29,910 bases of DNA from a virus (lineage: Duplodnaviria > Heunggongvirae > Uroviricota > Caudoviricetes). A program made the translations under genes and the position numbers. The stretch is from the IMG/VR virus record IMGVR_UViG_3300045988_123188; one strand, 5' to 3'. This document shows, piece by piece, positions 19,946-29,788 of this stretch (position 1 is the first letter of the stretch; every line of letters starts with the position of its first letter). The notes under the pieces are model-generated. The model was given only the letters and a program-made list of their open reading frames with translations, had not been told where the DNA came from and searched no databases.

Positions 19946-20656
19946 TTACAAAGGCAGAATGGCACTTCCTGCCCGATGGCGTTTGATGATTTCACTGCGC
20001 TTCTCCGCCGCATTTAATAATGCAGTTCGATTTAAGCTCAGACATCGCGACTTAATTAAAAGCCAGCGTTCTTTATAATCTTGTCTCCAGCTATCAATAG
20101 ATATATTCAGTAGAAAACTCAGATGCCTGTCCTGTTCTCTCTCATCAACTGCCTCAGCACACGTAAGTTCTGATTTAACCTGCTGTGCCGCGTAATAAAT
20201 CAATTTCCGCATGGCTTTTTTCGTGGAGGCCTTCATTTTTTTAAAGCCGCCCCCCGAATGAGCAACCAGAAAATCAAGCCATAACCACTGACAAACAATC
20301 ACATCATTGTTGTAATCAGGCTTGCATCCGTAGCAATAATAAAGCCAGGCTGATTCCTCGTTATTCAACTGACCAATAGCCCTGCGCCAGCTGGCGCTCT
20401 GAAAATCAATATCAGTGAGCAACATTGATGATTGTTTAAATGTTTTCCCCTGGTGGAATCTAACCGGCTCAGCAGGAACGGACACTTCGTATGAGTTATC
20501 ATCCCCCACACTGATTGACCGGACTGGTTTATTGTTAAACCGTCCTGACCTACCGAGACGCATCTGCTCAAGCTGGACCTCCAGAATGCCACGCTGGCGA
20601 TAATGAACATCAGCCAATGCCGTAGAGACGCAGCTGCGTATATACTCAAGCTCCAC
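19946..20656 (-). CDS. hypothetical 236-aa protein first downstream of cro; possible Q-like late antiterminator by position only
   Basis: Track ORF; the Q assignment rests only on my recollection that N15 immB is cB-cro-Q and on the PR'-like leader at ~13.1 kb; no sequence motif recognised. Confidence 0.3.
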   Translation of the reverse strand: MELEYIRSCVSTALADVHYRQRGILEVQLEQMRLGRSGRFNNKPVRSISVGDDNSYEVSVPAEPVRFHQGKTFKQSSMLLTDIDFQSASWRRAIGQLNNEESAWLYYCYGCKPDYNNDVIVCQWLWLDFLVAHSGGGFKKMKASTKKAMRKLIYYAAQQVKSELTCAEAVDEREQDRHLSFLLNISIDSWRQDYKERWLLIKSRCLSLNRTALLNAAEKRSEIIKRHRAGSAILPL

Positions 20657-20958: not shown

Positions 20959-21555
20959 ATGAAAACACGAGGCGAACGACTGAAAGCACGCCGTTTAGAG
21001 ATGAAGCTGACGTTGCGAGAAGTTGCTGAGGCTGTCGATATCTCTATAGCAGGCGTCCAAAACTTAGAACGTGGCGACGTAATGCCGTCACTGGAGATAG
21101 GTATTGCCCTGGCTAAGTGCTTACGCAAGCCAGTGCATTGGGTGCTATATGGGACAGAATATGACCCTGACCGCATTCCTGTTATTGGCACAACTGAAAG
21201 TGGGCCGGATGAAGAGTGGAAGCCGGGACAGGTTCCAAATACTGAGCGATTCCTGCCATTCATCAGCCAGCGCAATACTGTGTATGCGTTAACTATCAGC
21301 AATCTTACGCAGGGAAACTATCAGCCAGGCGATTTTCTCCTGGTCGATTCTGCGCTGGAACTGGTCCCCGGCGAGGATGTTCTGGTTCGTGATACTGCAG
21401 GAAATATCACTATCCAGCGCCTGGCCCGTTTTGATGATGAAAATTACTATCTGGATGGAACAAACTCACAACGCGCCATCTTCAGGAAAAGCGATCTTGA
21501 ATTTGTTCACCAAATAGTCGGAACGATCAAATCATTCATGGTTGAGGGTAGATGA
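20959..21555 (+). CDS. prophage repressor, CI/CB-like (N-terminal XRE HTH plus C-terminal S24/LexA-like fold)
   Basis: HTH LTLREVAEAVDISIAGVQNLERG; C-terminal region GDFLLVDSALELVPGEDVLVRD resembles the lambda CI C-terminal domain; ATG has no SD, suggesting a leaderless mRNA as for lambda cI from PRM. Confidence 0.7.
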   Translation: MKTRGERLKARRLEMKLTLREVAEAVDISIAGVQNLERGDVMPSLEIGIALAKCLRKPVHWVLYGTEYDPDRIPVIGTTESGPDEEWKPGQVPNTERFLPFISQRNTVYALTISNLTQGNYQPGDFLLVDSALELVPGEDVLVRDTAGNITIQRLARFDDENYYLDGTNSQRAIFRKSDLEFVHQIVGTIKSFMVEGR

Positions 21556-21656
21556 CTTAATACGGGGTTTATTGTTTGCTGTAAATCTGGTTTAATGCAG
21601 GGCATATGTTCTGTGGGTTGACTCAGGTTACAGCAGCAGAAAAAAGACGAAAAAAA

Positions 21657-21686
21657 ACCCGAGTCGGCAAACTCGGGTCCTTTTCA
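21657..21686. terminator. bidirectional rho-independent terminator ACCCGAGT-CGGCAA-ACTCGGGT flanked by A8 and TTTT
   Basis: Perfect 8-bp stem with T/A tracts on both sides; lies between the repressor gene and repA. Confidence 0.55.
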
Positions 21687-21800: not shown

Positions 21801-24800
21801 ATGACATTAAACGATTTCTATGCGGATCGCTTTGGCAGCGATCCGTTCTCGCTAATTGAAGCAGCACGGGATGAACTAACCGAGCTGGCACAGATGGCTG
21901 GTATCAACTGGCCTGCCTGTTCCGACAACATCCAACTCAACCCTCGCGGGGGGGTTGAGCGTTACTCTTCATACAATAAAACATCTCCAGAAGCTCTCGA
22001 AAAGAGCCTGAAAGGACGCGTAGAAATTTACTCCCGGCTGGAACACAGCAAAGGGATTGATTACCCGTTCATTAACTTCGTCCATAAAGGCAGCGATGCT
22101 GGCTCATGGAGCGGTTTCTCCTTCCTGTTTTCTGAATATCGCCGTGAGCAACAACGGAATAATGCGACCGTGGTCGCACAACCGGAAGAAGAACGGGAAA
22201 GAATAGAACGTCAGGCCGAAGCACGTCGTCGCCGTGAAGAACAAAAACGAATTAATGACCTGAAAAACAACCAAATGGACCATGAACGTTTGCTGGGATG
22301 GCTGGCATTCCACAGCGCGTGGGAACATGCTCCGGCTGAAGACGGCTCATGGCCATATGCGATTAAAAAAGGTATTCGTGACGTTTTTAGTTCATGTGAT
22401 GTGCGTCGCGTGACCAGTCACGACAGTGCGAAATGGAGTCGGGGACCAACCACATATATGGCTATCCCTCTGGCTCACCTGGACGGTCGTTACGATGGTC
22501 GTATTGTGGGTTGGCAGCGAATCGACAAACAAGGTGGGAAATACCAGACCAGCGCAGTAACCAGCGGCGATTTCGTCGGTGCCTGCTTTGTTATCGGTGA
22601 GCTGAAAGGGGCGCAAAACATCGCTGTTACAGAAGGTTTTGCTACTGGTGCATCCATCTGGCTTGCCACGAAAAAAGATAAACGCTTTGACGCTGTGGTT
22701 GTCGCTGTATCCGCTAACAACATGGTTCATGTTGTGGAACAACTGGTAAACATGTACCCGGCGGTAAAAATCACCTGCGCACTGGATAATGACCGGAAAT
22801 CTGCCACAGAAGGAAAAGGGAATACCGGCCTGCGGACTGGCTATGAAATCTTATCGAAATTCAACGATGTCCGCTGCGTCTATCCAACTTTTGAAGACGA
22901 TCCGCAAATGGAGTGCAGTGACTTCAACGACCTGCACAAACTACGTGGACTTCGTGAAACAGCACGTCAACTATTTGCAACAGCAAACCGCCTGAAAACC
23001 GGTACTGATTTGCTATCTCTGACGCTCAACCGCCTGAAGACAATTAAGCGGGATAACCGTCGTACTTTTGCCAAAGAGCTGCTGAGAGCGGTGGATATTG
23101 GCATGCTAACCTGCCCGGTTCCTAACAGTCCGTCAGATTTATTTAACATGTTCTGCATCGTTCTGCGTGAAATGGGACTGGAAAATATCTATCGCGCTAC
23201 GGTAAAAGACCACATTGCCCGTCGCCTGAATAAAAAGTGCCGTATTGCCCAGGCTCCGCGCTCTTTCAGCGAACGCATAACTGATCCCAATAAACGCCCT
23301 CAACATATCACCTATAAGCGTTTTGAAACTTCGGTAATGACCGATGATCTCCTGAAGTACGTGCAATCACTACAGGGGATAGTCATCGTCCGTGCTGGTA
23401 TGGGTTCCGGCAAATCTACTGGATTGTTACGACCGTTAATGCATAGCTCAGAACGTGGTATCTCTGTTGCTCACCGTGTCTCCCTTATTGGTGGCCTGTG
23501 GGAAATGATGACAGAAGGAAAAGGTGTAAAAGCCGATATCCTGCACTATCAGGACCCTGGCTATCAGGAAATGGCTCCATACGCCAGTAAACTGACCATC
23601 TGCATAAACTCGATTGTTAAAAACTGCTGGCAACCGTTGATGCGCCAGCACGACTATTTTGGCTTTGACGAGGCCACACAAGGGCTACGTGCCGTTCTTT
23701 CCGGTCGGGCTATGGAAAACCCAGTGGCTGTATTCAATACGCTAATTGACGCGCTGGCCAGAACGGAACAACACCCAATAATGGTGGATGCTGATGCGAA
23801 CGATCTGCTGGTTGACCTGGCTGAACTGGCTATGAAACGCCGTGAAGAACTAGGTTTACCGGCATGGCTGCAGATCCACGTAATTGAATTACCTGTTGAT
23901 GTTCGCAACCGCGAAACAGGTGAGCCAATCCGGGTTTTTTATACAGAAAAAGATCGCATCATGACCGAGGTGGTGAAAGCTGTATCGGATGGCGAAAAAA
24001 TCATGTTGGCCACCGACAGCTCCACCTTTGCAGAAGATGTGACAGCCACCCTGAGAATGCATTTTCCTGGTAAGAAATTTCTGTGTGTAAACCAGAAAAA
24101 CAAACCAGAGCCAGAAGTTGAAGCATTTACCAATCAACCGAAAAAGATGGTCAAAAAATACGACGGCCTGATTTATAGCCCGTCTATTTCATCCGGCGTG
24201 TCGATTGAGCAAAAACATTTTGACCGTCATTTCGGCATGTTCTGTGGTGAAGTTGTACCCAGCGACGCAGTGCAAATGCTACGCCGCGACCGTACAGCAA
24301 AAGAATTTATTATCGGCTTTGATAAAGCTCGTGCAAAACGTGAAACTGACCCGCAAAAAATAGAACGAGCATTCGCCCAGGCATTGCTTGCTACCGCAGG
24401 TATGAACGGTGAACTTACGGATGTCGTTTTCGATGGCGACCGTATATCAATGGGGGTGGCCAATACCGACTTTACCAGGATGAAAATTAAAGCAGCCGCA
24501 ATTGAAGCGACTGCGCGTAACGACTACGCCAGCAACATGATCTGCATCATGCACAGCGACGGTTATAAGGTATCACCGCTGGCCACCGATTATGCTGCGA
24601 ATGATATCGGTAAAGATCTGCGTAAAGAAGCGCGGGATATTGTGTGGGAACAGACACTGGATCTGCACCTCAATACAGAAACTCCACAAGAATCAGAGCG
24701 TGAAAAACTGCTAAAAAAACGCGCGCTGACGCTTGAAGAACAGGCAAAACTTGTCCGCTGGGATATTGAAAACGAACTGAAACTACCGGTTGAAGAAGGC

Positions 24801-25796
24801 ACGCTGAAATTCTATTTCGATGGTGCTCGAGACAAAGTTCGCCGCTATGAAACAATGCTTTTAGATGAGGTAACAGCTCGTCGTTACGACCGGGAAGAAG
24901 CAGCCATCAATTTTACCTACGCATACCGTCAGGCGGGACAGTGGCAATATTTTGTAGTGACCGCGATGACTCGCGAGCAGGCTGATGATGTCTTTAAAAC
25001 TAAATTCCCTGGAATAATCGATCACAAGGTAAAAGCTACTCCTACTGTTGAAGTCGGGGCGCGCGGTTTCTATGCGCTTAAATCAGCAACTCTCCGGCAG
25101 TACTTTATCGACTGCGGTATCAACCCTGAGACTATGACCGGCGAGGCGACTCAGGAGCGTCTCAAATTCGCTCGAGATAACCTCATGACAGCCGAACGCC
25201 GTGACCTGTTGAATAACGTTCTGCACATTGGTGGTTTTATGACGCCAAAAGGGAAGCCTAAAGTGCCGGAAGCGTTGTTTAAAAACATTTGCGACTCTCT
25301 TGGCCTTAAAACAGGTAAACGTCGCGGCAGAGACGGCGATAAGCGTCCAACCTTGCGTTTTGTTGAGCCTGAATCAGCGGCATTTATGCTGGATATTCTT
25401 GTTCAGCGTCAGAAAGATGGCCTAACCCTAAAAACGCGTAAAGCCGAGAAGACAGCCATCGAAATGGATCGCGATTTGGATCTCAATATATATATGGATG
25501 ATAAAACGCGATCCACAAACGAGCAGGTTCAAAACGCCCCTCATTCAGTAATTTCTGAGGCTTTGGCCGTGTTGCCAGTGGCTGTACCTGAGTCCTGGGC
25601 GATGAGTGCGCTTTCCAGTGAGGAGTTGGCCACTATGTCATCATGGTCATCAGCCAGCATAGCTATGACGTTTGCATCTCTGTACCTCACAGAGTTCATG
25701 GATCACCTTTCCAGCAATGAGCTGCGGCGGTTACGTGAATACATTACGGGGAATAGCTCATGCAGCTACGAAGAGCAGGGCGCTTTCTTTGGGTAA
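21801..25796 (+). CDS. repA: replication protein RepA, multidomain primase-helicase (N15 RepA-like)
   Basis: 1331 aa; Toprim/primase-like segment (NIAVTEGFATGASIW...TCALDNDRKSATEGKGNTG), Walker A GMGSGKST, Walker B-like FGFDEA; size and architecture match my recollection of N15 RepA (~1320 aa). Confidence 0.8.
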   Translation: MTLNDFYADRFGSDPFSLIEAARDELTELAQMAGINWPACSDNIQLNPRGGVERYSSYNKTSPEALEKSLKGRVEIYSRLEHSKGIDYPFINFVHKGSDAGSWSGFSFLFSEYRREQQRNNATVVAQPEEERERIERQAEARRRREEQKRINDLKNNQMDHERLLGWLAFHSAWEHAPAEDGSWPYAIKKGIRDVFSSCDVRRVTSHDSAKWSRGPTTYMAIPLAHLDGRYDGRIVGWQRIDKQGGKYQTSAVTSGDFVGACFVIGELKGAQNIAVTEGFATGASIWLATKKDKRFDAVVVAVSANNMVHVVEQLVNMYPAVKITCALDNDRKSATEGKGNTGLRTGYEILSKFNDVRCVYPTFEDDPQMECSDFNDLHKLRGLRETARQLFATANRLKTGTDLLSLTLNRLKTIKRDNRRTFAKELLRAVDIGMLTCPVPNSPSDLFNMFCIVLREMGLENIYRATVKDHIARRLNKKCRIAQAPRSFSERITDPNKRPQHITYKRFETSVMTDDLLKYVQSLQGIVIVRAGMGSGKSTGLLRPLMHSSERGISVAHRVSLIGGLWEMMTEGKGVKADILHYQDPGYQEMAPYASKLTICINSIVKNCWQPLMRQHDYFGFDEATQGLRAVLSGRAMENPVAVFNTLIDALARTEQHPIMVDADANDLLVDLAELAMKRREELGLPAWLQIHVIELPVDVRNRETGEPIRVFYTEKDRIMTEVVKAVSDGEKIMLATDSSTFAEDVTATLRMHFPGKKFLCVNQKNKPEPEVEAFTNQPKKMVKKYDGLIYSPSISSGVSIEQKHFDRHFGMFCGEVVPSDAVQMLRRDRTAKEFIIGFDKARAKRETDPQKIERAFAQALLATAGMNGELTDVVFDGDRISMGVANTDFTRMKIKAAAIEATARNDYASNMICIMHSDGYKVSPLATDYAANDIGKDLRKEARDIVWEQTLDLHLNTETPQESEREKLLKKRALTLEEQAKLVRWDIENELKLPVEEGTLKFYFDGARDKVRRYETMLLDEVTARRYDREEAAINFTYAYRQAGQWQYFVVTAMTREQADDVFKTKFPGIIDHKVKATPTVEVGARGFYALKSATLRQYFIDCGINPETMTGEATQERLKFARDNLMTAERRDLLNNVLHIGGFMTPKGKPKVPEALFKNICDSLGLKTGKRRGRDGDKRPTLRFVEPESAAFMLDILVQRQKDGLTLKTRKAEKTAIEMDRDLDLNIYMDDKTRSTNEQVQNAPHSVISEALAVLPVAVPESWAMSALSSEELATMSSWSSASIAMTFASLYLTEFMDHLSSNELRRLREYITGNSSCSYEEQGAFFG
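22163..22178. promoter_or_regulatory. sopC-like palindrome TGCGACCGTGGTCGCA embedded in repA coding sequence (encodes NATVVAQ)
   Basis: Fifth copy; the only one inside a gene. Confidence 0.55.
25466..25514. other. candidate replication origin inside the 3' part of repA: inverted repeats GGATCGCG/CGCGATCC flanking (AT)5, with three GATC sites
   Basis: Seen in sequence; N15 ori is reported to lie within the 3' region of repA (recall). Confidence 0.35.
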
Positions 25797-25854
25797 TCAG
25801 TGGATATTATCGTATGTGGAAATCGTGATTTTTCGGTGAACGGGGAGTAAGAAT

Positions 25855-26184
25855 ATGTCGACGACTGCATTTTTAGACAAACTTGATTACCGTCAGCTGC
25901 AGTTCTGCCGGGATGAATGCGATCGACGCATTAAGGCTATTCAGGAAGAAGAGAAGAAAGTAGCTTGGGCGATCACTGATGGTGGGATTAATTTGGGTTG
26001 GTTCAGGACAGAAAACTACGTGAAAGCGGCTGAGCGTTTAGCTTCTTTAGCTTCTGAATTGTGGGAGGAGGAGCCAGATAAGGAACACCCATCTACCCGT
26101 TTGGGGCTTAATCTGGCAATTGAGGGGCATCATTTACCATTATCAGAGTATAACGCTTTGTTTGCTGATGGTGAGTGGGGTTAA
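25855..26184 (+). CDS. hypothetical protein (109 aa)
   Basis: ATG with GGGGAG SD directly downstream of repA. Confidence 0.45.
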   Translation: MSTTAFLDKLDYRQLQFCRDECDRRIKAIQEEEKKVAWAITDGGINLGWFRTENYVKAAERLASLASELWEEEPDKEHPSTRLGLNLAIEGHHLPLSEYNALFADGEWG

Positions 26185-26186
26185 AA

Positions 26187-26582
26187 ATGGCTGTTCAATC
26201 ATACAAATACGAATCCCCTTTGGATAAGGGATACATTCGTATCAAGTTAAGTCGTTCTCAGCATAAGGCTATTTTTAAGGTAAGGAAAATTCGCATATTG
26301 GATGCGTATGCGTATTACTACAACGGTGAAAATGTTGTTGTTGAACACTTTATTGCACGATGGTTTGTAGCTCTGATTTTTGTCCCTCTCCTGTTAATTG
26401 GTACTTTTGTGGATGGTTTTCCTAGTACATGGCGGGAGATAAAGAAAGGCCTATTCCCGCGTAAGTACGGCAGATTTTCGCAAGATAGCTGGCGAGTTAT
26501 ACCTGGTAAACATTCTGTAGATGAGCAACCGATTGTTGATTTCTGGTTGAATCGTATGGCTGATGCTAAAAAAGTTGATTGA
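26187..26582 (+). CDS. hypothetical single-pass membrane protein (~132 aa)
   Basis: ATG 2 nt after the upstream stop; TM segment WFVALIFVPLLLIGTFV. Confidence 0.45.
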   Translation: MAVQSYKYESPLDKGYIRIKLSRSQHKAIFKVRKIRILDAYAYYYNGENVVVEHFIARWFVALIFVPLLLIGTFVDGFPSTWREIKKGLFPRKYGRFSQDSWRVIPGKHSVDEQPIVDFWLNRMADAKKVD

Positions 26583-26609
26583 ATTGTGATGACTGTTACA
26601 GGAGATAAA

Positions 26610-26897
26610 GTGAAGAGTTTTATTTTTGTTTTATGTTTTGCCTTTTCTGCTGCGGTTTATGCCCAGGAAGATAGCATTTCTGTTATTAACTCATCAGCGG
26701 ACCTTGCATGTAAAAATAATCCCGATGCTGCATCAAAAGAGTCATGCAAAGAGCTGCTCCTTTCGACGGCTGCTTTTGCTTCTGAAAATGCAAAATTTTA
26801 TTCAGCCTTTTGTCGCGGCTATGTTAAGGACGAAGATAAAGAAAAATGTGATGATGCCGGTAAGTTAGTTAGGTATTTCCAATCTCTTAATCAATAA
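26610..26897 (+). CDS. small secreted cysteine-rich protein (~95 aa)
   Basis: GTG start 5 nt after AGGAG; signal peptide KSFIFVLCFAFSAAVYA then QEDS; 6 Cys in the mature part. Confidence 0.5.
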   Translation: MKSFIFVLCFAFSAAVYAQEDSISVINSSADLACKNNPDAASKESCKELLLSTAAFASENAKFYSAFCRGYVKDEDKEKCDDAGKLVRYFQSLNQ

Positions 26898-26999
26898 TGG
26901 CCTTTGATTAACGATCAACTTCTGATCACTCGTTCAAGCAAACTATAAAAACACCTGTCCCCGTGACTGGTCACGGGGTAAAATGTCTTTGCAAATTAT

Positions 27000-27110
27000 T
27001 GACGTGCGCGTCGTTTTGACGGTAAAGTTTACTCCGCTACGGTAAATCCCGTAGCCGGGCGTAGGAACCCGAGTAAATGAAGCGCACAACACGCGCCAGC
27101 GTGTTTTTTT
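27000..27110 (+). ncRNA. candidate small antisense regulatory RNA (c4/CA-like) of the anti-repressor locus, ending at an intrinsic terminator
   Basis: Hairpin GCTACGG-TAAATC-CCGTAGC (~27036-27055), terminator AACACGC-GCCA-GCGTGTT + T7 (~27088-27110); 7-nt blocks CGGTAAA and GTAGGAA are complementary to TTTACCG and TTCCTAC ~130 bp downstream in the icd leader (~27181-27200). Confidence 0.3.
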
Positions 27111-27273
27111 GTGTGTAAAATCTGCGTACACCAAATTTATGGTGGCTCAGATGGGGCAGCTTTTAGCTGGCCGGTTTCTTCGTTTACCGGTATTCCTACC
27201 CCCGTCTGGGCTACCGCCATATAGAGCGTAGGAACTCTGGTGGTAGCACGACCAATTAAACGGAGTGCATACC

Positions 27274-27438
27274 ATGTTCAAATTCAAATTTGCGGCAATC
27301 GTTCGCACAGACAAAAAGTCACACATCCATCATCTTTCCACCATCGCGTCATCTGAACGGGAAGCTCGTCGCCAGTTCGCCAGCCGGTTTGTCCTGGTAT
27401 TGTCTGCCCGTATTCCGGTGCGCGAGGTGGCTGCATGA
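27274..27438 (+). CDS. Icd-like small protein (54 aa), putative cell-division inhibitor
   Basis: MFKFKFAAIVRTDKKSHIHHLSTIASSEREARRQFASRFVLVLSARIPVREVAA; SD GGAG 8 nt upstream; ATGA overlap with the next gene; not in the ORF track (<60 aa); family assignment from recall of Icd-like proteins. Confidence 0.4.
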   Translation: MFKFKFAAIVRTDKKSHIHHLSTIASSEREARRQFASRFVLVLSARIPVREVAA

Positions 27439-27668
27439 ATCAGGTAAAAATGAACACTGTTGGCCTGCTGGAATCGTTGGATGAACGTCTGGCTCAGGTC
27501 TATGCGCTCGTATCATCAGCCCATCGGACAATCTCCAGTTGTGAGGCGTCGATTTATCTCTCAGAAGCAGGGAAACTCCTTCAAATTGCGTGTGAGCTAA
27601 CACACGAAGCACAGGGTTATTCAGCATCGCTCTCGTCGCAATTGCTGCACGATAAGGAGGCTGAATGA
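27435..27668 (+). CDS. hypothetical protein (77 aa), AntA-position gene of the anti-repressor operon
   Basis: Track ORF; translationally coupled on both sides. Confidence 0.4.
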   Translation: MNQVKMNTVGLLESLDERLAQVYALVSSAHRTISSCEASIYLSEAGKLLQIACELTHEAQGYSASLSSQLLHDKEAE

Positions 27669-27829
27669 GCGCGTTAGCAGTCTTTTCCTTTCAGGAAGAG
27701 CATCAGGTTCGTGTAGTGATGATTAACGGCGAACCGTGGTTTGTTGCATCTGATGTGTGTATGGCGGCGGGTATTGATTCTACGGCCATCAGAAAGTTGG
27801 ATGAGGACGAAAAGGGGCAGGCGAGGTAG
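27665..27829 (+). pseudogene. truncated Bro-N/AntA-type antirepressor N-terminal domain (54 codons)
   Basis: MSALAVFSFQEEHQVRVVMINGEPWFVASDVCMAAGIDSTAIRKLDEDEKGQAR resembles Bro-N domains but stops after ~54 aa, whereas Bro-N proteins are usually over 100 aa. Confidence 0.4.
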
Positions 27830-27874: not shown

Positions 27875-29788
27875 TTATCCGAAATATGTCAGCCATGCTA
27901 ACTGCATTGCTGATATAGGGCTGTTTGCACTGCCGGACCAAGCATAATTCTGGCCATTATAATGAAACTCAACAACGTATGAGCCATCACCAATATTTCT
28001 CACAGGCTTAAATACCGGCTTAGATACAGGTGAAGAAGGCGCGGGCGGTTGCTGTTCTTCTACGCTCTCTTCCTCTTCCTCTTCCTCTTCCTCTTCCTCT
28101 TCCTCTATCTCAATTTCGTCGTCATCCAGATCGTCATCCTCTGATAATTCATCCGTCTGTTCAGGTATTGCTTCCAGCTCTTCTTCGTCAGGCATAACGA
28201 TTTCTGGAGAATCTATTTTCAGCTGCCATTGTCCATTTTCGCCAACAAATTGCCCCAGAGCATCAGCAGCAAATTCCAGGTATCGACTAATCATTGTAGG
28301 GCTAAATTTGAATGCTCTTAGAGTGCTGTTCGTGATTTTTATAGAGGGGTCATGCTCTACCAGCTGCTTAACTGTGTTATGCAGACGAACCCCGGCATCT
28401 CCTCTGGCGAATCCTGGCATTTCGTCATCAAGCTGCTGCAATGCTTCCAGCCTGGTATTTTCGTTTCCAGTATTTGGCCTCCATGTCTTTGAGAAGTTGG
28501 CCAGCTTGAATTGCTTATAGTGTAATTGAGTGTTTTCATCGTCATGGCCTAAAATTTCCATAAAGAAAACATCCTCATCTACGTTTTTCCAACGAGGATC
28601 TACGCGGAAAAACATTTCATACGCAATACGGGCATAAATAGCACGACTATCTTTATAAACACGGCGGTCATCTTTGAAAAATGATTTAACCCACGGGTTA
28701 AAAGCCTTTGCTAATATGGCATTAATCCGTCCGTTTTCAGAGCGTGTGTCGTTATCTCCATAACCTTTAACGACATCATCAAAATCAGATGCTGCTGGGC
28801 ATGAGCGAAGTACATTTATTAAATAAACAAATGTTTTTGCTTCGCATAATGTATATATTTTTCTGGTTATATCATCAGAAGTTCTTTTTTTTGCTTGGCC
28901 TAAAAAATCAACGGTATACTTACCAGAAACAGTAAATGTACCTTGATACATAATCTCAATCATTCGTCTTCCTGACAATGCAGCAAGTGCAAATGCCAAA
29001 GGAGCCATACCTGAACGAGTGTTTAGATTATTTAATGTAGCAGGGCTATTTATAATATCGTAAATAGCTTGCATATATTTAGGGTAATCAATGACCACCA
29101 CGTTACGTTTCTTATTGTGCAGAACGTCCGCCCATCGTTGCTGGATAGATGCGCGTTCGGCAGGGCTTAGTTGAAGATGATAGAGAATCTCATGGTTAAC
29201 TTTTAGCTGATTCAACTCCTCAAGTAAGGCAGATCCTTGCTGTAGTAATTTATATAAATAATCGCGCTTATCTTTCCAGTTATCGCTAGTTAAATCAGAT
29301 ATGGCGAATTGCCACTCTTTATATTTATTTGATAATTTTAATAACTTATTATGACTTTTGTTATCACCAATTCTGATATTAGATAAATCTTCTGATAAAG
29401 GGAGAATTAATTTTAATTTTGCCTGTAAAGCTGACATTCTCTGGCGAATATCGGCAGCAGGTAGAGAAAGCCATGACAATAGCTCCTCATTATATAAAGG
29501 ATACTTTTCAGATAGGCGATGTATATTTTTTTCAAAGCTATGATGAAGTTTATCATCAAACCGTTTTCTGGCCCTGCTCATATAGGCATTGAAGGTGTTG
29601 GCTGTAATTCTTTTTTCTAATCCTTTCCCCCTAAACTTTCGCTTATCATTAAATAATGCATTTTTAAATTTTAATGCAACAGCCTTTATTTTTTTTGTTT
29701 TTTCCCCTTGAGGACGGTCAGAGTTATCTATTGACTCAACATCGCTAACAAGTGAGTTTATTAATTCACCGATTTTTACTTTGCTCAT
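27875..29788 (-). CDS. telN: protelomerase TelN (telomere resolvase)
   Basis: 637 aa; MSKVKIGELINSLV...KRITANTFNAYMSRARKRFDDKLHHSF..., YLYKLLQQGSALLEELNQLKVNHEILYHLQLSPAERASIQQRWADVL, NTRSGMAPLAFALAALSGRRMIEIM, RINAILAKAFNPWVKSF...RVYKDSRAIYARIAYEMFF (catalytic Tyr region) match N15 TelN as recalled; SD GGAGAGGAAA. Confidence 0.9.
   Translation of the reverse strand: MSKVKIGELINSLVSDVESIDNSDRPQGEKTKKIKAVALKFKNALFNDKRKFRGKGLEKRITANTFNAYMSRARKRFDDKLHHSFEKNIHRLSEKYPLYNEELLSWLSLPAADIRQRMSALQAKLKLILPLSEDLSNIRIGDNKSHNKLLKLSNKYKEWQFAISDLTSDNWKDKRDYLYKLLQQGSALLEELNQLKVNHEILYHLQLSPAERASIQQRWADVLHNKKRNVVVIDYPKYMQAIYDIINSPATLNNLNTRSGMAPLAFALAALSGRRMIEIMYQGTFTVSGKYTVDFLGQAKKRTSDDITRKIYTLCEAKTFVYLINVLRSCPAASDFDDVVKGYGDNDTRSENGRINAILAKAFNPWVKSFFKDDRRVYKDSRAIYARIAYEMFFRVDPRWKNVDEDVFFMEILGHDDENTQLHYKQFKLANFSKTWRPNTGNENTRLEALQQLDDEMPGFARGDAGVRLHNTVKQLVEHDPSIKITNSTLRAFKFSPTMISRYLEFAADALGQFVGENGQWQLKIDSPEIVMPDEEELEAIPEQTDELSEDDDLDDDEIEIEEEEEEEEEEEEESVEEQQPPAPSSPVSKPVFKPVRNIGDGSYVVEFHYNGQNYAWSGSANSPISAMQLAWLTYFG
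28067..28102. repeat. perfect hexanucleotide microsatellite (CTCTTC)6 inside telN, encoding a poly-Glu run
   Basis: Six tandem perfect units on the plus strand, equal to (GAAGAG)6 on the coding strand, giving EIEEEEEEEEEEEEESVEE. Confidence 0.85.

What the first reader, a model, noticed from the sequence alone, without database searches (positions are those of the whole stretch)
25855..26897. Three small lysogeny-side genes downstream of repA, including a secreted Cys-rich protein and a single-pass membrane protein
These genes are co-oriented with the repressor and repA and so are likely expressed in the lysogen. A 95-aa signal-peptide protein with six cysteines and a 132-aa membrane protein are typical of lysogenic-conversion or exclusion factors. 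None is recognisable to me.
Basis: inference. Interest (0 to 1): 0.45.

Follow-up and report, generated by a model that had tools for sequence, protein, structure and literature searches.

The report
Small cargo genes behind N15-type repA
Three real small genes sit at the end of the replication operon of an N15-like linear plasmid-prophage: one is a conserved backbone gene, and two (a membrane protein and a small secreted protein) are imported cargo of untested, probably envelope-related function, in the slot where related Klebsiella phages carry bacteriocin cassettes.

Summary
The window is an N15-like telomere phage: cB repressor, repA, a c4-icd-ant immA region and protelomerase.

All three ORFs are real genes. 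They are tightly packed, have Shine-Dalgarno sites, and show dN/dS of 0.1-0.3 across ten E. coli relatives.

- **ORF1** (25855-26184, 109 aa) is the homolog of N15 gp35. It is a conserved backbone gene, not cargo.
- **ORF2** (26187-26582, 131 aa, one hydrophobic segment) belongs to a small phage family. The family also sits beside replication or early genes in Gorganvirus, Swiduovirus and P22-like phages, so it is not tied to lysogeny.
- **ORF3** (26610-26897, 95 aa) has a Sec signal peptide. The 77-aa mature protein is acidic and helical, with four invariant Cys (five in total, not six).

ORF2 and ORF3 are AT-rich (GC 38-40% against 49%). They fill a hypervariable slot between gp35 and immA, the position of the telocin/immunity cassette in Klebsiella phage NAR688.

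The 'Spackle' label on the ORF3 ortholog in GenBank PV340565 is not supported: only the signal peptides align, and there is no fold match. ORF3's few distant relatives lie at other accessory-gene sites in prophages.

A protective envelope role for ORF3 (exclusion or immunity) is plausible but only inferred. This is ordinary prophage cargo with unknown biochemistry.

The parts
20959..21555 (+). cB-type prophage repressor (context; start of the co-oriented block)
   Evidence: Pfam HTH_3 at 3e-11 plus Peptidase_S24. The cB-repA intergenic region aligns with that of N15, which holds the CB OL operators.
21801..25796 (+). repA (1331 aa primase / origin-binding replication protein)
   Evidence: Toprim_3 and Herpes_ori_bp hits. 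Orthologs are annotated as replication protein or CyRepA1.
25855..26184 (+). ORF1: homolog of N15 gp35, an acidic (pI 4.8) cytoplasmic protein of 109 aa; conserved backbone gene of the repA operon
26187..26582 (+). ORF2: 131-aa basic (pI 9.8) membrane protein with one hydrophobic segment (residues ~55-78) flanked by two basic domains
   Evidence: phrog_15458 at 1e-90 and phrog_28641 at 9e-11. Kyte-Doolittle peak 2.27 at residues 60-78. dN/dS about 0.3. Relatives in Yersinia P840, Ravinvirus, Swiduovirus, Gorganvirus, Lederbergvirus and an Aeromonas phage. GC 39.6%.
26610..26897 (+). ORF3: 95-aa precursor. Signal peptide 26610-26663; mature 77-aa acidic helical periplasmic protein 26664-26894 with invariant Cys34, Cys46, Cys68, Cys80
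   Evidence: Sequence and Cys count. Alignment with distant relatives. AF2 model with three helices, pLDDT 67.8. phrog_26765 at 1e-61. dN/dS about 0.2. GC 37.8%, GC3 28%. Mature pI 4.8.
26909..27030 (+). Right boundary of the variable slot: start of the conserved immA leader. It holds GATCAACTTCTGATCA (26913-26928), hairpin CCCCGTGA-CTGG-TCACGGGG (26959-26978) and a Pa-like promoter (26999-27028)
   Evidence: Near-invariant block shared with N15, NAR688, YDC107_1 and L007, although their upstream cargo is unrelated. Promoter-like site. The N15 match starts at window 26909.
27023..27221 (+). immA regulatory RNAs: a1/b1 target and isrK-like element with terminator (27023-27109), and C4 antisense RNA (27135-27221)
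   Evidence: Rfam C4 73.6 bits (gathering score 45), isrK 62.5 bits (gathering score 50), c4-a1b1 34.3 bits (below its gathering score). Terminator-like site 27088-27105.
27265..27829 (+). icd-like (27265-27438), gp31-like (27435-27668) and a truncated Bro-N antirepressor-like ORF (27665-27829, 54 aa)
   Evidence: Orthologs annotated Icd-like and BRO-N. Bro-N hit at 5e-7. N15 gene 30 is 264 aa.
27875..29788 (-). telN protelomerase (context; convergent with the block)
   Evidence: TelK_muzzle, TelK_stirrup, TelK_N and ResT-TelK_cat hits.

Best explanation
The stretch is the distal end of the repA (early-left) operon of an N15-like telomere phage. It has a conserved part and a cargo part.

**ORF1.** This is the N15 gp35 ortholog, a small acidic cytoplasmic alpha/beta protein present in N15-like phages of Escherichia, Salmonella, Citrobacter and Klebsiella. 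It belongs to the phage backbone. Its role is unknown; I infer a replication-accessory or host-interaction role.

**ORF2 and ORF3.** These are AT-rich acquired genes. They fill a hypervariable slot bounded on the left by gp35 and on the right by the conserved immA (c4-icd-ant) leader.

**ORF2 function.** ORF2 is a small inner-membrane protein of a family that phages carry in early or replication operons. Within this slot it alternates with the N15 gp33 family. I infer that it acts at the cytoplasmic membrane early after derepression or infection, and at a low level in the lysogen.

**ORF3 function.** ORF3 is exported by Sec and cleaved after AVYA. It is predicted to fold into a three-helix periplasmic protein of about 8.5 kDa, probably stapled by two disulfides. 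It is the truly variable cargo gene. I infer that it protects the lysogen's envelope by binding and blocking an incoming periplasm-acting protein, such as a phage tail or ejection protein or a peptidoglycan-degrading bacteriocin. That is how T4 Spackle works, but ORF3 is not a Spackle homolog.

**Shown:** gene reality, homologies, localisation signals, slot architecture and composition.
**Inferred:** co-transcription with repA, expression pattern, disulfides and the protective function.
For: **Element identity and order**
- N15-like identity and gene order.
- Purifying selection on all three genes.
- The module is on plasmid records only, in 12 of 5426 complete E. coli genomes.

**ORF1 is backbone**
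- Homology to gp35 and family size.
- Also present in NAR688.

**Slot survey**
- 24 distinct slot sequences of 460-2400 bp in 34 N15-like loci.
- ORF2-family or gp33-family comes first, never both.
- The last position is variable cargo: ORF3, lipoproteins of 270 and 138 aa, a RelE-like pair, or TelA/ImmA.
- The right boundary is conserved across phages with unrelated cargo.
- GC drops to 38-40%.

**Same locus in Klebsiella**
- The telocin locus lies between RepA and protelomerase, and TelA and ImmA are detected in lysogens: PMC12042878.

**ORF3**
- Signal peptide, four invariant Cys and helical model.
- Relatives sit just upstream of immA in another N15-like phage (L007), between gpI and gpJ next to a lipoprotein in lambda-like tails (L004, L030, L031), and between ant genes and the tape measure gene (L011).

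**ORF2**
- Family in early or replication modules.

**Operon control**
- CB control of the repA promoter in N15 and phiKO2: PMC4997575.
- The intergenic region is conserved here.
Against: - No functional data exist for any of the three families. There is no Pfam, NCBIfam, PADLOC or PDB match.
- No transcript data for this element. Co-transcription rests on spacing and on a simple promoter/terminator scan.
- The OR-type operator sequence of this phage (TATAGCCAGCTATA) is not found upstream of repA within 3 mismatches. CB control of the operon here is assumed from N15.
- The NAR688 ortholog of ORF1 (a hypothetical protein in that paper's annotation, by gene order) was not among the nine phage proteins detected in lysogens. 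RepA was not detected either.
- ORF2 topology is ambiguous because both flanks are basic.
- The ORF3 model is of medium confidence (pLDDT 67.8), and disulfide pairing was not computed.
- Several database copies of ORF3 are frameshifted. This could be sequencing error or real decay.
Confidence: 0.6

Rival explanations
1. ORF3 is a Spackle homolog, as its ortholog is annotated in Escherichia phage PhiR46_1. It would exclude superinfecting phage by inhibiting a tail-associated lysozyme.
For: GenBank PV340565 labels the 95%-identical ortholog 'Spackle exclusion protein'. The physical class is the same: Sec signal peptide, mature protein of 75-77 aa, acidic (pI 4.8 against 4.6), helical, disulfide-bonded.
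Against: - phmmer and profile searches of the PDB do not find Spackle (6x6o, 7cn6) even at E up to 10. The Spackle sequence itself retrieves those entries.
- hhalign aligns only residues 1-16, the signal peptides.
- The Cys pattern differs: four invariant Cys against one C29-C81 pair.
- No gp5-type lysozyme partner was looked for in this phage.
Confidence: 0.04
2. ORF2 and/or ORF3 are orphan bacteriocin (telocin/colicin) immunity proteins left in the telocin slot. They would protect the lysogen from toxins made by neighbouring strains.
For: - This is the slot where TelA/ImmA sits in NAR688.
- TelB, TelC and TelD are related to peptidoglycan-degrading bacteriocins. From general knowledge of pesticin and colicin M immunity proteins, their immunity proteins should act in the periplasm, where ORF3 is predicted to be.
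Against: - No toxin gene or remnant is in the slot.
- ORF2 has no similarity to ImmA or to any other slot protein. Its family sits beside replication genes in phages with no toxin nearby.
- ORF3 relatives lie in tail modules and beside ant genes, not next to bacteriocins.
- ImmB, ImmC and ImmD sequences could not be fetched for comparison.
Confidence: 0.12
3. ORF1 and ORF2 are not lysogen-benefit genes. They would serve the phage's own early programme, for example replication accessory function, membrane anchoring of replication, or host takeover. Only ORF3 would be cargo.
For: - ORF1 is conserved in N15-like phages of four genera, right behind repA.
- ORF2-family genes follow the DNA polymerase gene in Gorganvirus, lie in the nin region of a Lederbergvirus, and follow repA in Yersinia P840.
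- The operon promoter is CB-repressed in N15 and phiKO2.
- ORF2 alternates with gp33, as if one such membrane protein is usually needed.
Against: - Some slots have neither ORF2 nor gp33 (NAR688, L066, L081), so the function is dispensable.
- ORF2 is AT-rich like imported cargo.
- There is no direct evidence for any replication link.
Confidence: 0.3
4. The ORFs are chance open frames or decaying pseudogenes with no function.
For: Several database copies of ORF3 are frameshifted. The families are small and narrow: 9, 7 and 32 clusters.
Against: - dN/dS is well below 1 for all three.
- Intact copies exist in all ten fetched relatives, with conserved starts and Shine-Dalgarno sites.
- Distant homologs conserve four Cys (ORF3) or R23/H26/R33/D100 (ORF2) at 20-45% identity.
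Confidence: 0.02

Closest known systems
N15 genes 33-36 (distal repA operon of phage N15)
   Same: Same position between repA and immA. ORF1 is the ortholog of gp35 (63% identity). gp33, like ORF2, is a small protein with one hydrophobic segment containing a central Pro, and occupies the same place in the slot.
   Different: N15 has gp36, gp34 and gp33 instead of ORF2 and ORF3. ORF2 against gp33 is not significant by hhalign (probability 3.5%). None of these N15 genes has a known function.
Telocin/immunity cassette (TelA/ImmA) of Klebsiella telomere phage NAR688 (PMC12042878)
   Same: Same insertion slot, directly downstream of the gp35 homolog and upstream of the immA leader. It encodes envelope-acting proteins, which are expressed in the lysogen.
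   Different: There is no toxin here. ORF2 (1 hydrophobic segment, 131 aa) is unrelated to ImmA (4 TM, 181 aa), and ORF3 is unrelated to TelA.
T4 Spackle (gp61.3)
   Same: Sec-exported, about 75-aa, acidic, helical, disulfide-containing periplasmic protein made by a phage. This is the working model for how ORF3 could act.
   Different: No sequence or fold similarity beyond the signal peptide. ORF3 has four conserved Cys rather than two, and three long helices rather than a flat five-helix bundle. T4 is virulent, and its target (gp5 lysozyme) has no known counterpart here.
P1 simABC superinfection-exclusion locus next to c4-icd-ant (immI)
   Same: Secreted phage proteins encoded immediately beside the homologous c4-icd-ant module.
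   Different: The sim genes are divergently transcribed. SimC is 264 aa. There is no sequence similarity.
Accessory genes (morons) in lambdoid tail modules, such as HK97 gp15 and Cor-type exclusion genes (from general knowledge)
   Same: ORF3 relatives sit between gpI and gpJ, or before the tape measure gene, next to a lipoprotein gene. These are typical places for envelope-acting exclusion genes.
   Different: No homology to gp15 or Cor was tested or found. The function is unproven.

Membership tests
N15 gp35 family (phrog_10878) - ORF1 | Full-length sequence similarity to N15 gp35 | tested here: met
   63% identity over 108 aa, E 5e-49. phrog_10878 at 2e-42, covering residues 1-105 of ORF1 and 1-104 of the 104-position profile.
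N15 gp35 family (phrog_10878) - ORF1 | Position downstream of repA in an N15-like telomere phage | tested here: met
   Same order in N15, PhiR46_1, NAR688 and 37 viral contigs.
T4 Spackle (gp61.3) - ORF3 | Sequence homology to the mature Spackle domain | tested here: not met
   No PDB hit to 6x6o or 7cn6 at E up to 10. hhalign aligns only signal-peptide residues 1-16.
T4 Spackle (gp61.3) - ORF3 | Compact flat five-helix bundle fold | tested here: not met
T4 Spackle (gp61.3) - ORF3 | Sec signal peptide and a small acidic periplasmic mature protein with a disulfide | tested here: met
   Signal peptide, 77-aa mature protein, pI 4.8, four invariant Cys. Disulfide formation is inferred.
T4 Spackle (gp61.3) - ORF3 | Binds and inhibits a tail-associated lysozyme (gp5) | not testable with these tools
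   Needs biochemistry. No gp5-like partner was looked for in this phage.
Telocin immunity proteins (ImmA type) - ORF2 | Similarity to ImmA, and pairing with an adjacent bacteriocin gene | tested here: not met
   BLASTP of ORF2 against all slot proteins, including NAR688 ImmA, gives no hit. No toxin ORF is in the slot.
Telocin immunity proteins (ImmB/C/D type, periplasmic) - ORF3 | Similarity to ImmB, ImmC or ImmD | not tested
   The sequences (WP_110096655.1, WP_225376636.1, WP_154905061.1) were not retrievable with the tools used.
P1 Sim proteins - ORF2/ORF3 | Sequence similarity to SimA, SimB or SimC | tested here: not met
   Profile scores of 3.5 bits or less, and BLASTP E of 0.2 or worse.
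phrog_15458 / phrog_28641 small phage membrane proteins - ORF2 | Full-length profile match and conserved motifs (R23, H26, R33, hydrophobic segment, GFPxT, D100) | tested here: met
   phrog_15458 at 1e-90 over residues 1-131. 12-sequence alignment down to 20% identity.
phrog_26765 / phrog_21025 secreted four-Cys proteins - ORF3 | Profile match, signal peptide and four conserved Cys | tested here: met
   phrog_26765 at 1e-61 and phrog_21025 at 2e-4. Relatives P0052 and P0053 hit both PHROGs. C34, C46, C68 and C80 are invariant.

The most novel reading that the evidence does not exclude
ORF3 and its few relatives (phrog_26765/21025) would be a new, Spackle-unrelated class of disulfide-stapled three-helix periplasmic proteins. 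Temperate phages would use them for superinfection exclusion or toxin immunity, by binding a periplasm-transiting tail-tip or ejection protein or a peptidoglycan hydrolase. This would explain why they sit next to tail-tip or tape-measure genes and antirepressor modules. ORF2 and N15 gp33 would be interchangeable members of a second unknown class of early phage membrane proteins.
Probability: 0.22. Interest if true: 0.55.

Novelty: new member of a known kind. Interest (0 to 1): 0.3.

Why it matters
- It defines a precise cargo slot in E. coli N15-like telomere phages, running from gp35 to the conserved immA leader at about 26909. This is the slot that carries telocins in Klebsiella, so other accessory genes can be mined there.
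- It corrects a misleading public 'Spackle' annotation, which appears to rest on signal-peptide similarity only.
- It gives two small, tractable candidates for exclusion or immunity tests: a 77-aa periplasmic protein and a 131-aa membrane protein.

No new principle is shown. The genes are typical uncharacterised prophage cargo.

Tried and rejected
- **Family libraries.** Pfam, NCBIfam and PADLOC gave nothing for all three proteins. The weak DUF2385/TIGR02301 hit for ORF3 (E about 0.1) was not shared by any other family member.
- **PDB sequence and profile searches.** No significant match for any of the three. The best for the ORF3 profile was a plant invertase inhibitor at E 0.73, which I treat as chance.
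- **Spackle.** Rejected.
- **Exhaustive HMMER for ORF3.** A search of 1.84 billion representatives found only three real distant relatives. Most close 'homologs' are frameshift variants.
- **Genome scan.** The GTDB genome scan with the ORF3 profile found nothing.
- **ORF2 against N15 gp33.** hhalign probability 3.5%.
- **ORF1 against N15 gp34 and a 128-aa slot protein.** Not significant, at 0.2% and 17.6%.
- **P1 Sim proteins.** No similarity.
- **Lysogen proteome.** The 'gp35' detected in NAR688 lysogens is a RelE/ParE toxin under that paper's own numbering, not the N15 gp35 homolog. It therefore gives no expression evidence for ORF1.
- **Literature.** No paper on PhiR46_1 or on N15 genes 33-36 turned up in the three library searches run.

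Full report
**What the element is.** The window is an N15-like linear plasmid-prophage (telomere phage). The region around the finding matches Escherichia phage PhiR46_1 (91%), YDC107_1 and N15. Pfam identifies a Q antiterminator (19946-20656, minus strand), a cB-type repressor (20959-21555, plus), RepA (21801-25796, plus) and protelomerase (27875-29788, minus). Downstream of the finding lies the N15 immA / P1 immI-type module. It holds a C4 antisense RNA (27135-27221, 73.6 bits), an isrK-like element with the a1/b1 target and a terminator (27023-27109), an icd-like ORF, a gp31-like ORF and a truncated Bro-N ORF.

**Check of the observation.** The three ORFs exist as described.
- ORF1 is 25855-26184, 109 aa.
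- ORF2 is best read from the ATG at 26187, two bases after the ORF1 stop. That gives 131 aa, not 132.
- ORF3 is best read from the GTG at 26610 behind AGGAG, giving 95 aa. Public annotations use the same start.
- ORF3 has five Cys, not six. One lies in the signal peptide and four in the mature protein.

These are real genes. Across ten related E. coli elements, pairwise dN/dS is about 0.1 (ORF1), 0.3 (ORF2) and 0.13-0.36 (ORF3). Alleles of the three genes are reshuffled between elements. The three-gene module occurs in 12 of 5426 complete E. coli genomes, always on plasmid records of about 46 kb.

**ORF2.** It is basic (pI 9.8). One hydrophobic segment (about residues 55-78, with a central conserved Pro) lies between two basic domains, so its topology is ambiguous. 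Close relatives are confined to E. coli N15-like elements. tblastn finds more distant ones:
- Yersinia telomere phage P840 ORF32 (44%), the last gene before telN
- a Ravinvirus from Enterobacter
- Swiduovirus CF-SP1, phages 15G/15b and EcoIv28_Lewi
- an Aeromonas phage
- Proteus Gorganvirus, directly after the DNA polymerase gene
- the nin region of the P22-like phage Brookers

A 12-sequence alignment keeps R23, H26, R33, the hydrophobic segment, GFPxT and D100. The family is thus a small phage membrane protein of early or replication operons. By genus it extends beyond temperate phages (Gorganvirus, Swiduovirus); that these two genera are virulent is my own knowledge, not a tool result.

**ORF3.** It has a Sec-type signal peptide (cleavage after AVYA). 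The 77-aa mature protein is acidic (pI 4.8). The exhaustive HMMER search found only three real distant relatives: P0049 (45%), P0052 (41%) and P0053 (34%). All have signal peptides and share invariant Cys34, Cys46, Cys68 and Cys80. Many close database copies are frameshift variants. The model shows three helices at medium confidence (pLDDT 67.8).

The relatives sit at typical accessory-gene sites:
- P0049 lies immediately upstream of immA in another N15-like phage.
- P0052 lies between gpI and gpJ of lambda-like tails, next to a lipoprotein gene.
- P0053 lies between Arc/Bro-N/ORF6N antirepressor genes and the tape measure gene.

**The Spackle label.** The ortholog in GenBank PV340565 is annotated 'Spackle exclusion protein'. 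I verified the T4 Spackle sequence against PDB 6x6o and compared it with ORF3.
- hhalign aligns only the first 16 residues, the signal peptides.
- PDB sequence and profile searches do not find Spackle.

Spackle is a 75-aa, flat five-helix bundle with one disulfide, and it binds gp5 lysozyme (PMC7677548). ORF3 shares its physical class but is not a member of the family.

**The slot.** I fetched 37 N15-like loci through ORF1 and located the C4 RNA in each. The DNA between gp35 and immA has 24 distinct versions, 460-2400 bp long.
- The first position holds either an ORF2-family gene or an N15 gp33-family gene, never both. Both families have a similar hydrophobic motif, but hhalign is not significant.
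- The last position is variable. It holds ORF3, lipoproteins of 270 or 138 aa, a RelE-like/HTH pair, small cytoplasmic ORFs, or the ImmA/TelA telocin cassette.

In NAR688 the telocin cassette sits exactly here. TelA and ImmA are among only nine phage proteins detected in lysogens (PMC12042878).

The right boundary is sharp. From about 26909 onward, N15, NAR688, YDC107_1, L007 and the window share a near-invariant leader with a hairpin at 26959-26978 and a Pa-like promoter. ORF2 and ORF3 have GC of 39.6% and 37.8% (GC3 of 35% and 28%). repA and immA have 49-50%.

**Expression.** The scan found no promoter-like or terminator-like site between repA and ORF3, and the gene spacing is tight. Co-transcription with repA is therefore the simplest reading, but it is inferred.

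In N15 and phiKO2 the repA promoter overlaps two CB operators and is repressed by CB (PMC4997575). The cB-repA intergenic region here aligns closely with that of N15. However, this phage's own OR operator sequence is not repeated there. The operon is thus best seen as an early-left operon, leaky in the lysogen and strongly on after derepression, rather than a dedicated lysogenic unit.

The 'gp35' seen in the NAR688 lysogen proteome is a RelE toxin under that paper's numbering, not the ORF1 homolog.

**Function.** Nothing ties any of the three genes to a known biochemical activity. The best-supported reading is as follows.
- ORF1 is a backbone accessory protein.
- ORF2 is an early phage membrane protein of unknown role.
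- ORF3 is a periplasmic cargo protein that most likely protects the lysogen's envelope, through superinfection exclusion or immunity to a periplasm-acting toxin. This rests on its export, its disulfide-stabilised small helical build, its location in a slot used for envelope-acting genes, and its relatives next to tail-tip, tape-measure and antirepressor genes.

P1 offers a positional parallel. Its secreted SimABC exclusion proteins abut c4-icd-ant, but they are unrelated in sequence.

**Verdict.** The finding is ordinary prophage cargo in a now well-defined slot. It adds one useful correction (not Spackle) and offers testable candidates.

Noticed in passing
window 27023-27221: Complete P1/N15-type secondary-immunity RNA module: a1/b1 target and isrK-like element with terminator (27023-27109), and C4 antisense RNA (27135-27221, 73.6 bits).
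   Followed up: partly
window 27665-27829: The Bro-N antirepressor-like gene is only 54 aa here, as in PhiR46_1 and most E. coli relatives. It is 264 aa in N15 gene 30 and 259 aa in NAR688. This lineage appears to carry a truncated ant-operon gene, which might affect induction.
   Followed up: no
window 26909-27030: Near-invariant block shared by five telomere phages with unrelated upstream cargo: inverted repeat GATCAACTTCTGATCA (26913-26928), hairpin CCCCGTGA-CTGG-TCACGGGG (26959-26978), then a Pa-like promoter. The hairpin may terminate the repA operon or be a protein-binding site.
   Followed up: partly
window 25797-25854; L001 3090-3281; L020 4467-4727: Relatives (PhiR46_1, pS159-3, NAR688) have a 63-86-aa hydrophobic ORF overlapping the 3' end of repA. 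The window (and p23GD35035_P4) lacks it and has only a 58-bp spacer before ORF1.
   Followed up: no
loci L053-L089 (slot between gp35 homolog and C4 RNA): Other cargo in the same slot: lipoproteins of 270-272 aa (L054, L060, L075), a 138-aa lipoprotein (L085), a RelE-like toxin plus HTH protein on the minus strand (L073), a 212-aa minus-strand ORF (L065), and TelA/ImmA cassettes (L066, L067, L081). ORF2-family and N15 gp33-family genes never co-occur.
   Followed up: partly
window 26626-26868 (alternative frame) and proteins P0003, P0005, P0007, P0008, P0009: Many database copies of ORF3 are frameshifted into the overlapping +1 frame. This could be assembly error in long-read-only assemblies or real decay. 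All ten loci fetched here are intact.
   Followed up: partly
L007 3291-4045: In a divergent N15-like contig, the ORF3 relative P0049 is preceded by about 750 bp with no convincing ORF. This could be an RNA, a degraded gene or the gene's own promoter region.
   Followed up: no
L004 5310-5723; L030 6373-6786; L031 6317-6730: In lambda-like tail modules, the ORF3 relative is always followed by a 137-aa lipoprotein (phrog_6823, unknown function) before gpJ. This is a conserved two-gene insert.
   Followed up: partly
window 27875-29788 (minus strand), around 28030-28200: The protelomerase has a long acidic tract near its C-terminus (...DDDLDDDEIEIEEEEEEEEEEEEESVEE...). This explains the repetitive PLPLPL/LFLFLF ORFs seen on the opposite strand.
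   Followed up: no
window 21650-21685: A strong hairpin with A/T runs on both sides lies between cB and repA, identical to the 'putative rho-independent terminator' annotated in N15. It may attenuate read-through from cB into repA.
   Followed up: no
N15 gp34; L077 240-626 and 1043-1360; YDC107_1 5404: Several other small slot proteins resemble ORF1/gp35 in layout (N-terminal helix, beta hairpin, helix, strand). One gave BLASTP E 3e-4 in a tiny database. hhalign probabilities are only 0.2-18%, so paralogy is unproven.
   Followed up: partly
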